A stretch of DNA of 64,000 nucleotides from Octopus sinensis (Eukaryota): assembly GCF_006345805.1 (NCBI RefSeq), contig NC_043000.1, positions 96,100,001 through 96,164,000 of the forward strand, read 5' to 3'. The stretch's first letter is position 1, and the number at the start of each line of letters is the position of its first letter. Position numbers and translations under genes: made by a program. Positions 5,731 to 56,054 of this stretch are shown piece after piece. The notes below the pieces were generated by a model, which saw only the letters and a program-made list of their open reading frames with translations, ran no database searches and was not told the DNA's origin.

Positions 5731-8700
5731 ATCATCATCATCATCGTTTAACGTCCGTTCTCCATACTAGCATGGGTTGGACGGTTCGACCGGGGTTCTG
5801 GGAAGCCAGAAGGCTGCACCAGGCTCCAGTCTAATCTGGCAATGTTTCTACAGCTGGATGCCCTTCCTAACGCCAACCACTCCGTGAGTGTAGTGGGTGC
5901 TTTTTACGTGCCACCTGCACAGGTGCCAGGCAGGGCTGGCAACGGCCACAGTCAGATTGGTGTATTTTATGTGCCACCGGCACGGAAGCCAGTCGAGGCG
6001 GTGCTGGCATCGGCCACGAGTCGGATAGTGCTTTTTACGTACCACCAGACCAGGGATCCTGGCTGGTTCAATTCGATTTCGATTTCGCTTGCCCCAACAT
6101 GTCTTCACAAGCAAAGGGGGTTGGCATGGGTGCCTGTCGTACGGTCGCATTGGAGTATTTTACGTGCCACGGCCACAAGTCGGATAGTGCTTTTTACGTA
6201 CCACCAGGCCAGGGATCCTGGCTGGTTCAATTCGGTTTCGATTTCGCTTGCCCCAACATGTCTTCGCAAGCATGGGGGGTTGGCATGGGTGTCTGTCGTC
6301 GGATGAGGTTCTATATCGACTTCGTTTGCCTCAACAGGTCTTTGTGTCCAAGGGAGGGAAGGCATTCATAAGTGGGCTGGGCTCACTTGTCCTGCCTGGT
6401 CTTCTCACGTACAGAATATTTCCAAAGGTCTCGGTCGCTGGTCATTTCCTCAGTGAGGCCTAAAGTTCGAAGGTCGTGCTTCACCACCTCGTCCCAGGTT
6501 TCCTGGGTCTACCTCTTCCACGGGTTCCCTCAACTGCTAGGGATTGGCACTTTCTCACACACTATCTTCATCCATTCTCGCCACATGACCATACCAGCGC
6601 AATCGTCTCTCTTGCACACCACAACTGATGCTTCTTAGGTACAACATTTCTCTCAAGGTGCTAACGCTCTGTCGAGTATGTATACTGACATTACACATCC
6701 ATCGGAGCATACTGGCTTCATTCCTCACGAGCTTACGCATGTCCTCAGCAGTCACGGCCCATGTTTCGCTGCCATGTAGCATGGCTGTTCGTACACACGC
6801 ATCATACAGTCTGCCTTTTACTCTGAGCGAGAGGCCTTTAGTCACCAGCAGAGGTAAGAGCTCCCTAACTTTGCCCAGGCTATTCTTATTCTAGCAGTTA
6901 CACTTTCAGCGCACCCACCCCCACTACTGACTTGGTCACCTAGATAACGGAAGCTATCAACTACTTCTAGTTTTTCCCCCTGGAAAGTGACGGAAGTTGT
7001 TTTCTGCAGATTTTCGGAGGTTAATGCTCCCGAGCATCTGCCACATACAAAAACTATCTTCCCAGTTAGCCTACCTTTGACATTGCTGCACCTCTTATGT
7101 GTCCATAGCTTACACTGGGTACATCTTATAGAGTTTCTACCTACACCTTTTCTACAGATCGAGCAGGGCCATCTTCCTGAAGATATTTGTGGATTGTCTA
7201 CCTTTCTACTTATTAGTACTTTGGTTTTAGCTAGGTTGACTCTAAGCCCCTTGATTCTAAACCCTCCTTCCACACCTGGAACTTCTCCTCCAGTTCTGAT
7301 AGTGACTCAGCAATAAGAGCAAGGTCGTCAGCGTAGAGGAGCTCCCAGGGACAGCCTGTCTTGAATTCCTCCGTAATTGCCTGGAGTACTATGATAAATA
7401 GGAGGGGGCTGAGTACTGAACCCTGGTGGACCCCAACCTCTACTTTGAATTCTTCTGTGTACATGTTGCCAACCCTAACCTTACTTACAGCATCTCTGTA
7501 CATGGCTTGCACAGTCCTCACCAGCCATTCATCTATCCCTAGTTTCCTCATTGACCACCAGATAAGGGATCGGGGGACCCTATCAAAAGCTTTCTCCATG
7601 TCAACGAAAGCTAGGTACAGGGGCTTATCTTTGGCTAGGTATTTCTCCTGCAGCTGCCTTACCAGGAATATAGCATCAGTGGTACTTTTCCCTGGCACGA
7701 ACCCAAACTGCATCTCATCTAAACTAACTCTCTCTCTAATTAATTGGGCTATGACCCTCTCCGTAACCTTCATTACTTGATCCAACAGCTTGATACCTCT
7801 GTAATTATTTGTATCTAGGGCATCACCTTTACCTTTGTAGCAGTTGACTAGTATGCTGCTGCACCAGTCATTGGGTATGACTCCTTCGTGTATCACCTGG
7901 TTGACTATACGGGTGACTAGGTTATAGCCGACACTGCCAGATATTTTGAGCATCAAGTCTTTCATCCTCACGGCGCAGGACATTGGCAAATTTTCTCTTA
8001 TCTGCTTCCCCTCTGGCTAGATAGACCTGTCTCCTAGCTTCCCTTCTGGCAGTCTGATACCCTTCCCTGCTACCACCGTTCTTCCAGGCCTTCCAAGCCT
8101 GTTTCTTTTGTCTAATAGCCCTGTCAACAATATTGTTATTTTGGGTCTTAAGACCACGTTATTTTGGGTCTTAAGGGGACTTTGCACCAGCCACAGATCT
8201 GGTCAGCGGCTTTCAGCAGGTTGTCCCTCAGAAACGTCCAGTTGTCTTCTACCCCATGTGTAGCTATACCCCCTTCCACTTCGTCAAAGGCTTCAAGTAA
8301 CATATCTCTAAATCTCTGTCCATTCGCAGGGTCTTTAAGCTTCCAGACCCTTCTTCTCCATGTTGGTCGTCTTCTAGTCGCCCTCTTAGTCCTGATCCTA
8401 AAGTCACTAACTACCAGTCTATGTTGTGGGGTGCATTCTTCGCCTGGGAAGGTTTTGGCATTTATAAGCAGCCATCTTTCCCTTTTTCTGGCAAGGATGT
8501 AGTCGATTTGGCTAGTATGCCGGCCCGATCGGTAGGTGACCAGGTGGCTTGTTGGTTTCCTGAAGTTAGTGTTGCAGACCATAAGACTATTCGCATCGCA
8601 GAACTCCAGCAGCCTGGTTCCCTCCTCGTTGCGGGAACCATAACCGTAGCCTCCATGTACGCCATGGAAGCCCCCAGCATGTCGTCCAACATGCCCATTG

Positions 8701-8897
8701 AAATCACCAGCCACAAAGAGAAGGTCCCTGTCGTTCGTCAATGAGGTGGTCTGCAGTAGGGTGTCATAGAAACTGTCTTTCTGTCCATCGGGTAGCTCTG
8801 GCTGAGGGGCATAGGCCGATATAATGGTTGCTAATCTATGATGAAGCACTATTCTAATCTTAAGTATTCTGTCACTTACTCTGATTACCTCAATTAC
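5731..8897 (-). mobile_element. RTE-clade non-LTR retrotransposon, 5'-truncated, frameshifted and internally deleted
   Basis: APE endonuclease remnant (SAYAPQ, AGDFNGHVG, SQIDYIL, QHRLVV; 8148-8897) and RT (NYRGIKLL, QFGF, FVDMEKAFD, GVHQGSVLSP, LLYADDL; 7231-7957). RTE C-terminal motifs (FRYLG, LHGSETW, RLRWYGHVARM) follow in shifted frames. The 3' UTR ends in an (ATG)n tail at about 5731-5745. Confidence 0.95.
6012..6299. repeat. Two-copy ~129 bp direct repeat in the RTE 3' UTR
   Basis: 6012-6140 and 6171-6299 are near-identical (ggccac[g/a]agtcggatagtgctttttacgtaccaccag...ggttggcatgggtg[c/t]ctgtcgt). Confidence 0.9.
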
Positions 8898-8929
8898 TCT
8901 ATATGTAACAATACCTGATATTAGTTTAG

Positions 8930-9313
8930 CAGTGTTTCTAAACCTTTTTATCATTGCATAACCCTTAAAATGAATTACATATCTCAAGGAACCCCTGCAT
9001 AAAAAAAATTATATACTATATCTTTCTCATTTTTTCATCATAGTTCACATAGTAATGATCACACACATATATATATATATATACAGACATCACTAAATAT
9101 ATCCCCGTGGTTGTTAGATTTTTATAACATAATAGGATGTAGATAGGATGAGGTCTATATTACATTATTACAATAAACAATAATATGTCGTACACATATA
9201 GTAATATTACAATCTGGAAATAAGCATTAGCTTATCTGACTCTTTCTTGCGGAACCTCTAGGAACCTTTTGCGGAAACCTAGGGTTCTCTGGAACCCTGG
9301 TTGAGAAACACTG
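8930..9313. mobile_element. hAT (Charlie-like) non-autonomous element
   Basis: TIRs CAGTGTTTCTAAACC / GGTTGAGAAACACTG and subterminal ggaacc repeats. The TSD is not clean. Confidence 0.7.
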
Positions 9314-33616: not shown

Positions 33617-33683
33617 CAACGTTTCAGCTGATATATATCCTCCAGCCTGATGAAGACTGGAGGGTATATCAGCCGAAACGTTG
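33617..33683 (+). repeat. Palindrome containing a hammerhead-like core (Penelope-like remnant)
   Basis: caacgtttcagctgatatatatcctccagcCT-GATGA-AGactggagggtatatcagccgaaacgttg. The arms are near-complementary, and the right arm reads CTGATGA...cagccGAAAC. Confidence 0.7.
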
Positions 33684-35124
33684 TGTTAACAACAAATAAG
33701 ATGGGGACAAATATCCGTCAAATGTAAATAATGTACATGATTCCTCATCTCTTAAATATAGAACTGTATGTATATATATATATATATATATATCACGTGA
33801 TCGACCAGACTATCAGATGTTGCTGCACATCGCTAATCACAATGCGCTTCGCCTCAAATGACGCCACCCTGCTGGCTATATATATATATATATACACAGA
33901 TATAAACACACATACATATATCATTACCATCATTATCTTTTAATGCCCATCTTTCATGCTGGCATGGTTTGATAGCATCTGATGTATCATGCCCCAATTT
34001 GTGTTTCAGCATGGTTACTATGGCTGGACGCCCTTCCTAACACCAACAACATTACAGGGTGTACTGGGTGCTTTTTTTTCTTCATGGATGAACACAAGAG
34101 ACATTGCTATTGCTATGCAGCTTGCAACTTAAGATTTCCTTCCACTGAGTATAAGGGAGGTGGCTTTATGCTAAGAGATGAGAGGTTAAAGCATGAGAAG
34201 AGACCAGGCCAGAACAGCTTTATTGTTGTAGAGGTGCTTCCATGGCTATTTATGCTGTAGAAGAAAATATGGGAGTAGCAGAGATAGTACTAGAAAGTAT
34301 AATGAAATAGTGGAGACTAGGTGTCAGGGAAGACCTCAAGATACAAAATGAGTAGAAGTGAGTGAGCACAGAACAGTGGTAGGTAGAGGTTGCAAGAATG
34401 CATGGGGAGAATGAAATGGTTAAAGATGGGGAATGGGTGAGGGGTAAATATAATGAATGAAGAACAAGTGTTGAGGGATGATAAATATACGTTGGAGGGA
34501 AGATAGGTAAGAGTAGGTGATGACTGTAGAGATTGGATAGGGATGAGGGGTGGATGTAATGAACAGTGGACAAGGGATGAAGGTGATCAAATGATAACAT
34601 GAAGTGAGGGGAGAAAAGGTGATGAGTGATAGTACAGAAAGGGTGAAGAGCAGCAGAGTGTGATAATGATACAGTAGAGAGGGGAAGGACGAAAGAAAGA
34701 GCCGTGTGGTTGGATAGGTTGCAAGAGTGGGAGGTGTAGTGCATAGGGAGAGTGATGCATGGAAAAGGAGATATAATCTGGTGGCACAGAAGGGTCATCA
34801 ATGTAAACACTGAGTGAAGAAAGGCAGTATTAAGAATGAAAGAGAGGTATCAAGTGAGGTGGTTCAAGGTAGTGAGAAAGACAAGTGGTATCAGGGAAAA
34901 GCTATTGAAGTATACATTTTTGCTCACATTTAATTACAGCAGCAGATTATTACAGTTAGGCAGGTCATGGAGAGAGTCAGTGATAGAGATGAGTTTTGTG
35001 GTCAGTTTAAGAAGGAAAGTGGGCAAGAGGCCCAGTTGTATGTGTATATGTGTCTATGTATACATATAGATATATATGCATGCATAGAAAATGGACGTTA
35101 AACGATGATGATGATACAGTTATA

Positions 35125-36390
35125 CAAGGGTGGGTACTCAAAAGTGACTGGAAATATTCTCTGTGGAAGAAGACCGTTGTAGTTCAGGCTTCTACTGCTA
35201 CAAACCACTTAATGCAACCCTCAGCCATCAATCTACTGACTGGTGGCATCATATAAAGTCATACTGCTACATGGTGCATCTTTGTTTTGCAGTGCTTCTC
35301 CCCTGTTCATCAATTTCTGCAATGGCTGAAACAAAGGAACAGCAAGCTTCTGTGAAATTCTATTTTCTGCCAAGGAAAATGGTGACTGAAACAGTTGTCA
35401 AGCCTCAAACAGCTTACATGGACATTGCCATGAGCAAAACACAAGTTTACAAGTGGTTTTCATGCTTTAGGAATGGTCACTTGTCGCTTGAAGCTCAACA
35501 TCATTCAGGGCAATCTTTGACCTCCCAAATGAATGAAAATATCACAAAAATTCATGAACTGATCTTGGAGGATCGCCACAGAACAGATGACAAACTTTTT
35601 GATATGAAGCTCCTGCCAACGAATTTTGAGCAAAGAATTGTGAATGAAAAGAGTTGCAGCAAAATTTGTGCCTTGCTTGCTCATGGAAGATCAAAAGCAG
35701 TCACAACTAAATGCATGTCGTGAACTGAAAGAACAGTTGGAAGTTGATCTAGACCTCTTTTCAAAGGTCATCACTGGTGATGAAAGCTGCAGCTATGGCT
35801 ATGACCCAGAAACAAAGCAGCATTCAAGTCAATCGAAACATTTGATGTCACTACAACCCAAAAAAGCACACCAAGTGAAGTCCAATGTCAAGACAATGCT
35901 GATTTGTTTTATTGATGCAAAAGGAATTTTCTACACACAATTTGTTCCTCCAGGCCAAACTGTTACTTGGCAGTTCCGAAGCATTTGTGAGACGCAGTAA
36001 GATGAAAATGCCCCGGCCTGTGGCAAAATCGAGACTGGTGGTTTCATCACGACAATGCACTTGTGCACACCACCTTGAGTGTGAGAGTTTTGACCAAATA
36101 TGGCATGACCCTGCTTACCCACCCTCCCTATTCATCCAAACTTGCTGCCTGTGACTATTTTTTTTGTTCCCCTGAATGAAAAGTGTCCTTAAAGGAAAAT
36201 GTTTTGCAGATGAGGAAGAAGCATCACTTTGCAAGATTTCAAGGACTGCTTTGAACAATGAAAAACATGTCTGGACTGATGCGTTGCTTCAAGTGGAGAA
36301 TACTTTGAAGGCGATAAAAGTGTGAACATGTAAAAACTAAGTGAATAAAATAATATTGCAAAATTCTGGTTTCCTTTGGGTATGCCTTTG
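35125..36390 (+). mobile_element. Mariner DNA transposon, decayed (irritans/Hsmar2-like), transposase pseudogene ~35322-36333
   Basis: Fragments MAETKEQQASVKF, AAKFVPCLL, ITGDESCSYGYDPETKQ, HHDNA, PPYSSKLAACDYF and GEYFEG occur across frameshifts. Degenerate TIRs (caagggtgggtactcaaaag / cctttgggtatgcctttg) are flanked by TA. Confidence 0.9.
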
Positions 36391-37391: not shown

Positions 37392-38643
37392 TCAGGTCAC
37401 TAAGAATGAAATGTCCCATTTTGAACTGAAAGATTATTTTACTTTATCTCAAAAAAAGCATTGCAGTTAATCAAAGAATGCACCTAAATTATCAACACAA
37501 TTTTGCCATTTTATCAGTAGCTTATTCATGCCAGCAGCGAAGAATTCTGGAGAGCAAGGGGTGATGAAATCATGGAAGGCTGTTATTGCATCATCTTCAG
37601 ATTCAAAGTTTTTTCCTTGCAAAATGTTGTTTAATGACTGGAAAACATGATACTCGGTTGGTGAATATGGTAGATGACAGAGTACTTCCAAGTCTAGTTC
37701 CTGTAACTTGAGCAATGTTCTTTGTGCAACATGTGGTAGAGCATTGTCTTGCAAGAGAATTGGCCTGTCTCTATTGACCAATCTTGGTTGCTTAATTGCA
37801 AGTTTACTCATCATGTCATCCAATTGGTTGATGTATATGTCTGCTGTAACTGATTTACCAAATCTCATGAAGCTGTAGTGGATGACACCAGCATTGGACC
37901 ACTAAATAGACACCATTAGCTTCTGTTAGTGAATATTCTTTTTTGGATTGTGTTTTGGCACTTCATCTCTATCCAACCACAGTGCAGAACAGTAGCTATT
38001 GTTGAAAAGAATCCATTTTTCATCACACATAACAATACAATGCAAAAACGGTTCACTTTTATGCCATGACAGCAAAGAACAGCAAGTTTCAAGATGTGTC
38101 ATTTGATACTCGTTCAGTTCATATGATACCCACTTGTTGAGCTTCTTTACCTTGCTGATTTGTTTTAGATGGCCCAATATAATTGGAAGCGAAAAATCAA
38201 ACTTTGCTGCTAACCCACACATAGTTTGAGAGGTATCCACTTCCACTACAGTTTCCAGCTCATCATTATCCACCTTGGTCCCAGGTCTACCACAGGGGTA
38301 ATTTTCAAGAGTAAAGTCACCAGACCAGAATTTCTCAAACCATTGACGTACAGTGCGCTCATTCGCCACATTTTCACCAAACACCTCATTGATGTTTCGA
38401 GCTGTCTGGAATGCATTGGTTCCACAATGGAACTCATATTTATAAACAACACAAATTTTTGATCTATCCATAAGTTAACAAAAATTGATTTACAAGCAGA
38501 AACTCACAATATAATCAGACACCATGAATTGCATTTCGAAATGTGATGTAACTCTTCAATGTTGTAAAACAAAGAATTGTCAGGATAAAATATCAGAGTT
38601 AACAACTGTCAAACTTGGTGCATAAGAAAATCGGACATTTCAT
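37392..38643 (-). mobile_element. Mariner DNA transposon, decayed (Hsmar1/SETMAR-like), transposase pseudogene 37467-38471
   Basis: Motifs WVSYEL (WVPHEL), MCDEKWI, LLQDNA and HLPYSPTEYHVF (YSPDLAP with a deletion) in two frames. TIR remnants are atgaaatgtcccatttt (37406-37422) and aaaatcggacatttcat (38627-38643). The right end is truncated next to an RTE-tail insertion. Confidence 0.9.
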
Positions 38644-40419: not shown

Positions 40420-40678
40420 TGTTTGTTTCTTCTCGAGCCATCCCTGGCTCATTAGAGCCGGTTTCCCAGTTTCCTGTGAGCTGCAAGATGCAGGAGGAAA
40501 GAGTGAGAGAAAGTTGTGGCGAAAGAGTCAGCAAAAGTTCACCATTATCTTCTGCCGGAGTTGCGTGGAGCTTAGGTGTTTCGCTCATAAACACACACAT
40601 CGCCTGGTCTGAGATTTGAACCTGCGATCCCTTGACCATGAGTCCACTGCTCTAACCACTAGGCCATATGCCTCCACA
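40420..40678 (-). mobile_element. tRNA-derived SINE (family C)
   Basis: Minus-strand head tgtggaggcataTGGCCTAGTGGttagagcag...GGTTCAAATCT. A related copy lies on + at about 62686-62990. Confidence 0.75.
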
Positions 40679-55888: not shown

Positions 55889-56054
55889 ATTAGTTGAAAA
55901 AAGTTAAAAGTCTGGTTTTCACGTTTTTTATTATGGTATTTTAACAAAACGCTATCATGCATAGTATACTCATCTGATGAAGATGAGTACACTGTATAAA
56001 AGCGCTAATTTTGTTAAAATACCATAAAAACCAGACTAACTTTATTTAACCAAT
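55889..56054. repeat. ~165-bp imperfect palindrome with CT-GATGA-AG apex
   Basis: Paired blocks agtctggtttt/aaaaccagact, ttatggtattttaacaaaa/ttttgttaaaataccataa and tactcatct/agatgagta around the loop GATGA (55976-55980). Confidence 0.8.

What the first reader, a model, noticed from the sequence alone, without database searches (positions are those of the whole stretch)
33617..33683. Palindrome folding back on the hammerhead core CT-GATGA-AG (copy 1)
Seen: a 67-bp near-perfect inverted repeat whose 5-nt loop (GATGA, 33649-33653) lies inside a hammerhead core CTGATGA. The right arm continues into a stem II-like gactg/cagcc and GAAAC. Known: Penelope-like elements carry minimal hammerheads in their pseudo-LTRs and often insert with an inverted terminal copy. 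Inference: this is a fold-back (self-primed) product whose turning point is the ribozyme core. An unrelated palindrome at 55889-56054 turns at the same apex, which suggests a reproducible mechanism or an undescribed class of non-autonomous hairpin elements.
Basis: partly seen in the sequence, partly recalled or inferred. Interest (0 to 1): 0.72.

Follow-up and report, generated by a model that had tools for sequence, protein, structure and literature searches.

The report
Penelope insertion scar, microhomology-set hairpin tip
The hairpin is two back-to-back, cut-short end pieces of an abundant Penelope-type jumping gene, likely joined at a 3-base overlap that happens to lie in a hammerhead ribozyme motif; sister hairpins turn at many other places, so this is an ordinary insertion scar and not a new element class.

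Summary
The hairpin and its GATGA loop are real. It is two head-to-head, 5'-truncated copies of the pseudo-LTR of a protein-coding Penelope-like element (RT plus GIY-YIG), a layout already described. The scan found this family, with its tRNA-like head, before on other DNA. The claimed fixed apex fails. It occurs in 1 of 50 unselected family hairpins and 1 of 71 near-core ones. Junctions are spread out and sit at microhomologies; here the overlap is CCT, built into the extra-A hammerhead core. The second palindrome belongs to another family and gets the same letters from a 6-nt duplication. Across families, back-to-back cores show little pile-up near the core. One residue survives: in this family, arm ends are about 2.6-2.8-fold enriched at the core's 5' edge, partly through one hotspot. 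In 46 of 50 pairs one arm carries the tail and the other does not, and target-site duplications flank the pairs. This favours two separately primed cDNAs over simple fold-back. This copy's ribozyme lacks stem I and is predicted to be buried. Also noticed: a young 498-bp tandem hammerhead repeat with the same insertion signature.

The parts
33617..33648 (-). Inverted, 5'-truncated pLTR arm of family A (reference positions +7 to about +37 from core C3). It has no catalytic core, and its outer end is unusually short, abutting a (CTAT)n run.
33646..33648 (.). CCT microhomology shared by both arms: the junction (class +7/-1, 3 nt)
33646..33767 (+). Direct, 5'-truncated pLTR arm of family A, ending at the end of the tail (reference 279) next to a (TA)n run; 96.7% identical to the family reference
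33647..33687 (+). Minimal type I hammerhead motif remnant: core CTGATGA, extra A, stem II with an A.C mismatch, GAA, palindromic ACGT, predicted cleavage after 33682. The 5' strand of stem I is lost.
   Evidence: layout as in PMC4209133
55889..56054 (.). Second palindrome: head-to-head arms of a different hammerhead-bearing family (B). Junction -2/+2 by ATC microhomology; the apex loop comes from a 6-nt duplication at about 55976-55986.

Best explanation
The hairpin is two head-to-head, 5'-truncated copies of a Penelope-like element's pseudo-LTR, likely made in one insertion by two separately primed cDNAs whose ends annealed at a CCT microhomology. Inferred steps: the GIY-YIG endonuclease makes a staggered break in AT-rich DNA. 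Each free end primes reverse transcription on element RNA, one at the tail-end start site (reference 274-279) and one about 27 nt further in (241-260). Both cDNAs stop early and are joined at any short complementarity. The extra-A hammerhead core (C-T, five bases, A-G) always offers a 2-3 nt overlap of this kind, so a CT-GATGA-AG tip recurs now and then in unrelated families without any ribozyme action. Shown here: family identity, paired long and short ends, target-site duplications, microhomology and the spread of junctions. Not shown: the order of molecular events.
For: Full-length copies carry inverted pLTR + ORF + pLTR; RT PF00078 E=9e-9; the C-terminus matches GIY-YIG clusters at 0.96-0.97. 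One arm with tail and one without in 46 of 50 and 53 of 71 pairs. Flank repeats of at least 8 bp in 55 of 99 such pairs against 2% in shuffled pairings. Microhomology of at least 2 nt in 23 of 50 against 14% expected, at least 4 nt in 14 of 50 against 2%. The tail-less arm reaches further 5' in 58 of 86 pairs and the tail arm in 28, so neither arm can always be a copy of the other. Short loops are not in excess when conditioned on length (distance up to 10 nt: 10 vs 6.8 and 20 vs 20.0). In vitro, an anole PLE cuts and extends both strands and starts reverse transcription at two sites bounding the tail (PMC11167929).
Against: Arms share non-CpG variants 3.5-fold more than random pairs (21 of 3875 sites against 0.0015 per site), and in family C both arms carry the same source haplotype. 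This fits fold-back as well as two primings on one source. Near-symmetric junctions (up to 3 nt apart) are slightly in excess in the unselected set (6 vs 2.2, p=0.027). Arm ends at core -2..+4 exceed the microhomology model about 2.6-2.8-fold. Site 1 itself has a short left arm and I found no target-site duplication there, so it shows only part of the signature.
Confidence: 0.6

Rival explanations
1. Fold-back with asymmetric resolution: one cDNA (or an antisense RNA) snaps back at a microhomology and copies itself, and the endonuclease later trims one arm at the tail during integration.
For: PMC3846280 reads head-to-head palindromes as self-priming (passages). PMC8557442 ascribes the tail to endonuclease resolution (passages). 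Arms share source variants. The commonest junction joins CAGGT to ACCTG, which pair in the predicted RNA fold (probability 0.23).
Against: No excess of short loops beyond the closest class. Junctions with arm ends only 0-2 nt apart and no room for a loop exist. It needs an unobserved cutting step to put the tail on either arm. Two internal start sites are seen in vitro.
Confidence: 0.28
2. The ribozyme sets the turning point: its fold or cleavage stops reverse transcription at the core and yields a reproducible apex or a hairpin element class.
For: Both window junctions lie at the core. Arm ends at -2..+4 number 38 vs 19.9 expected (58 pairs, p=9e-6, window chosen after seeing the data) and 9 vs 3.8 (43 pairs, p=0.018). 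Five family A loci and one family C locus have the exact apex.
Against: Exact apex 1 of 50 and 1 of 71 (2 of 59 after refinement, 1.1 expected). No excess at the predicted cleavage site (8 vs 13.8). With the window widened to -2..+8 the excess falls to 1.6-fold (p=0.06 and 0.2). Family-independent back-to-back cores within 10 nt: 26 of 466 net, against 16-24 expected. Family C: only the query among 13 junctions turns at the core. Site 2's apex form occurs once in the genome.
Confidence: 0.06
3. Later deletion: a longer palindromic insertion lost its centre by microhomology-mediated repair.
For: Microhomology at junctions. Site 1's left arm has also lost its outer part.
Against: A very young family (97-99% identity) already shows dispersed junctions. 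Full-length head-to-head pairs with a 2-nt spacer persist (L029).
Confidence: 0.06

Closest known systems
Endonuclease-containing Penelope insertions with inverted pLTR, tail and target-site duplication (Adineta vaga; PMC3846280, abstract and passages seen; PMC8557442, passages seen)
   Same: Head-to-head pLTRs, a roughly 30-nt tail on one arm only, 8-13 bp duplications, pLTR holding the start of the ORF, microhomology at 5' junctions.
   Different: Here both copies are cut to short pLTR stubs, with hundreds of such pairs. The family pLTR begins with a tRNA-Arg-like head and an (AAT)n linker.
Poseidon PAc of Anolis carolinensis (PMC11167929, parts 1-2 of 4 read)
   Same: Hammerhead overlapping the ORF start, two start sites bounding the tail, AT-rich targets; ribozyme cleavage was not needed for insertion in vitro.
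   Different: The paper's main text does not analyse inverted junctions. The ATG here lies about 35 nt before the core. Clade membership was not tested by a tree.
Minimal type I hammerheads of metazoan PLEs (PMC4209133, parts 1-2 of 4 read)
   Same: Extra base after A9, G10.1-C11.1 pair, palindromic helix III, 4-5 bp helix I in intact family copies.
   Different: The copy at 33647 has lost helix I's 5' strand, has an A.C mismatch in helix II and is buried in the long hairpin.
L1 twin priming (5' inversions; recalled, with PMC2837659 seen only as a search listing)
   Same: Two primings from both sides of a break, joined at microhomology, flanked by a target-site duplication.
   Different: L1 inversions copy non-overlapping parts of one RNA (recalled); here both arms copy the same 3' region.

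Membership tests
Endonuclease-containing Penelope-like element (family A) | ORF with RT and C-terminal GIY-YIG, bounded by pLTRs | tested here: met
   L246, L249, L253, L254 and L257 hold ORF pieces between pLTR copies. RT PF00078 hit in 1 of 5 pieces scanned. GIY-YIG by atlas features only, no Pfam hit. All long copies seen are broken.
Endonuclease-containing Penelope-like element (family A) | pLTR plus tail equals the start of the ORF | tested here: met
   The frame opens inside the pLTR and continues past the tail in L258, L261 and L248.
Endonuclease-containing Penelope-like element (family A) | Inverted 5'-truncated copy, tail on one end only | tested here: met
   46 of 50 and 53 of 71 pairs. 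Site 1 has the tail arm; its other arm is shorter than usual.
Endonuclease-containing Penelope-like element (family A) | Target-site duplication around the whole insert | tested here: met
   55 of 99 pairs with at least 8 bp against 2%. None recognisable by eye at site 1, which lies between microsatellites.
Penelope/Poseidon clade | Phylogenetic placement of the RT | not tested
   No tree built.
Minimal type I hammerhead | Core bases, extra base after A9, G10.1-C11.1, palindromic helix III | tested here: met
   Family reference and site 1.
Minimal type I hammerhead | Helix I of 4-5 bp at site 1 | tested here: not met
   Family reference has 5 pairs; site 1 has 2 at most, and ribozyme stems have near-zero probability inside the hairpin.
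Minimal type I hammerhead | Self-cleavage as a dimer | not testable with these tools
   Needs an in vitro assay.
Non-autonomous hairpin element with a fixed apex | Many copies sharing one junction | tested here: not met
   Junctions are dispersed; exact apex 1 of 50 and 1 of 71.
tRNA-derived SINE | tRNA-like 5' head | tested here: met
   51 of 74 nt identical to a tRNA-Arg(TCT) of this genome, best of 20 distinct tRNAs from 30 loci covering only six amino acids. ARAGORN and Rfam do not call the head a tRNA.
tRNA-derived SINE | Independent of a coding element | tested here: not met
   The head is the start of the pLTR of the coding element.
Penelope-like element (family B, site 2) | Associated RT and GIY-YIG ORF | not tested
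   Only the hammerhead layout, head-to-head arms, one-sided tail and (TA)n targets were seen.

The most novel reading that the evidence does not exclude
The fold of the hammerhead region biases where Penelope reverse transcription stops or rejoins: arm ends pile up about 2.6-2.8-fold at the core's 5' edge. Together with the one-long-one-short ends, target-site duplications and microhomology in over a hundred genomic pairs, also seen in a young non-coding tandem retrozyme-like repeat, this would be in vivo evidence that PLE machinery inserts by twin priming from two start sites.
Probability: 0.25. Interest if true: 0.5.

Novelty: new member of a known kind. Interest (0 to 1): 0.24.

Why it matters
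The site itself is ordinary. How Penelope elements form inverted repeats is still called undefined (PMC8557442, passages). The junction statistics gathered here bear on that question and link the two in vitro start sites of PMC11167929 to genomic scars. In four searches and the parts of five papers that I read, I found no junction map of this kind. Subscription papers and Repbase/Dfam notes are not searched, and I did not look at supplements.

Tried and rejected
Rfam scans of the window and six loci gave only microsatellite-driven miRNA-like hits in the rows shown. ARAGORN found no tRNA in 21 loci. My first reading, a Penelope-dependent tRNA SINE, was dropped after earlier notes and my own check showed the head belongs to the pLTR of a coding element. 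Ribozyme cleavage as the source of arm ends was rejected (8 vs 13.8). Family B as a replicate was underpowered: 3 and 14 pairs, mixed subfamilies, and a reference unreliable upstream of about -80. No RNA holder listed. Three unstranded RNA runs of a related species label, laid on a family copy at 82% likeness, showed pLTR pieces at high depth, little ORF and no start or end peaks; this says nothing on cleavage or on this locus. The pattern mostly caught ordinary family A copies; of the first 100 of 302 rows I judged by eye 3 to have the exact apex, site 1 included. Rows dropped: three duplicate or paralogous loci (L068, L070, L143), and junctions with inserts over 4 nt in the refined model (6 of 50, 9 of 68). 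The refinement breaks ties towards longer microhomology, which inflates the hotspot count. Exact-match anchors favour younger copies.

Full report
Observation. The hairpin is in the sequence as described: arms 33617-33648 and 33654-33683 pair at 27 of 32 columns, with the loop GATGA at 33649-33653. It is far beyond shuffles (-22.3 against -5.3 +/- 1.9 kcal/mol). The second palindrome at 55889-56054 is also real. The heptamer CTGATGA alone is at chance level in the window.

What it is. The window lies at G000:C4:96100001-96164000 in a 2.7-Gb genome, and the site matches a high-copy family (1213 first-look candidates). The right arm runs to 33767 and is 96.7% identical to a 279-nt family reference. 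The reference has a tRNA-like head (51 of 74 nt identical to a tRNA-Arg of this genome), an (AAT)n linker, an ATG, a hammerhead motif and a tail. I first read it as a SINE. Earlier notes of this scan called it the pseudo-LTR of a coding element, and I checked this. Three loci (L076, L116, L132) continue past the tail into shared sequence, which has 371 candidates. Among 21 long stretches, five read inverted pLTR, ORF, pLTR. [quoted passage not shown] So site 1 is two 5'-truncated pLTR copies head to head, a layout described for Penelope elements (PMC3846280; PMC8557442).

The ribozyme. Intact family copies fit the minimal type I hammerhead of PMC4209133: core, extra A, 5-bp helix II closed by G-C, palindromic ACGT, 5-bp helix I. 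At site 1 the junction removed helix I's 5' strand, helix II has an A.C mismatch, and ribozyme stems have near-zero probability within the long hairpin. This copy is predicted inactive; cleavage was not tested.

Is the apex reproducible? Two samples were mapped. One is the first 50 of 174 pairs found with a downstream anchor; the other is all 71 pairs with junctions near the core. Junctions are spread from about -150 to +60 around the core. The exact apex occurs in 1 of 50 and 1 of 71 (2 of 59 after refinement, 1.1 expected). Targeted searches gave five family A loci with it, site 1 included. Junctions favour microhomology: at least 2 nt in 23 of 50 against 14% expected, at least 4 nt in 14 of 50 against 2%. 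At site 1 the overlap is CCT. The commonest junction is a different one, a 5-nt CAGGT overlap (12 of 59). The extra-A core always has CT and AG five bases apart, so this tip is available in any such family (inference from the sequence).

Site 2 is not a homologous case. It belongs to family B, whose core is followed directly by helix II with no extra A. Its junction is -2/+2 by ATC overlap, and the loop comes from a 6-nt duplication; that form occurs once in the genome. Across families, back-to-back cores number 485 within 60 nt (control 19) and 33 within 10 nt (control 7). Net 26 of 466 compares with 16 expected for uniform ends (p=0.014) and 21-24 once 2-3 nt of overlap is allowed (p=0.16-0.33). 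A third family gave one exact apex (L313), by a GCT overlap; its other 12 junctions lie elsewhere.

After modelling microhomology and length, arm ends at core -2..+4 are in excess: 38 vs 19.9 in 58 near-core pairs (window chosen after seeing the data) and 9 vs 3.8 in 43 unselected pairs (p=0.018). Twelve of the 38 come from the CAGGT hotspot, and my refinement leans towards it. The excess falls to 1.6-fold in a wider window. There is none at the predicted cleavage site (8 vs 13.8). Family B was too small to replicate it. A pause at the predicted CAGGU/ACCUG stem would explain it without the ribozyme.

Mechanism. One arm ends at the tail end (274-279) and the other about 27 nt short (241-260) in 46 of 50 and 53 of 71 pairs. 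Flank repeats of at least 8 bp surround 55 of 99 such pairs against 2% in shuffled pairings, so each pair is one insertion. The tail-less arm reaches further 5' in 58 of 86 pairs. A plain fold-back copy of a tail-primed cDNA cannot give those, and a copy of a tail-less cDNA cannot gain a tail. The anole element cuts and extends both strands and starts at two sites bounding the tail, without needing ribozyme cleavage (PMC11167929). I therefore favour two primings joined at microhomology (0.6). Fold-back with later asymmetric cutting remains (0.28): arms share source variants 3.5-fold above random pairs (family C), and near-symmetric junctions are slightly in excess. Site 1's own left arm stops early next to a (CTAT)n run, probably from later loss (inference).

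Context. An exon of a RanBP9/10-like gene lies on the minus strand near 53190-53519 (E=2e-18). Site 1 is probably in its intron; my motif scan found no later exon in the window. On that strand the sense arm has no core. RNA reads were uninformative.

Verdict. Ordinary Penelope insertion scar; new member of a known kind; interest 0.24. Papers seen: PMC11167929 parts 1-2 of 4; PMC4209133 parts 1-2 of 4; bioRxiv 10.64898/2026.07.22.740005 part 1 of 5 and a term search; PMC8557442 passages; PMC3846280 abstract and passages. I did not look at supplements, which may hold junction data.

Noticed in passing
L334:1004-1501 (G000:C10436); L313/L333 (G000:C3:29403088); L333-L362: A young (mostly 96-99% identity), 498-bp tandem repeat with a type I hammerhead layout and no long ORF, inserted in (TA)n. 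It forms head-to-head arms with two fixed 3' ends (227 and 318 nt after the core) and microhomology junctions. This retrozyme-like repeat shows the Penelope insertion signature. The 2026 preprint's abstract argues the link by phylogeny and distribution, and its text uses 'inverted' only in a reference.
   Followed up: partly
L029, L248, L258, L259 (family A pLTR start): The pLTR of the coding element begins with a tRNA-Arg-like head and an (AAT)n linker, a possible RNA polymerase III promoter. Earlier notes of this scan report the same; promoter activity is untested.
   Followed up: partly
family A reference positions -25 and -2 from the core: A junction hotspot (12 of 59 near-core pairs, 1.9 expected) at a CAGGT/ACCTG overlap that also pairs in the predicted RNA fold.
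   Followed up: partly
L314-L317 (e.g. G000:C4:73757951, C5:85729616): Old, short hammerhead-type hairpins that seem to turn 3-4 nt before the core, possibly one further family with a recurrent apex.
   Followed up: no
window 53190-53519 (-): Exon of a RanBP9/10-like gene.
   Followed up: partly
window 6555-9008 (-), 35148-36000 (+), 37467-38474 (-): A decayed LINE with RT and endonuclease pieces, and two mariner-type transposase remnants.
   Followed up: no
window 40649-40672 (-): A tRNA-like head of another short repeat, sharing 23 of 25 nt with the family A head.
   Followed up: no
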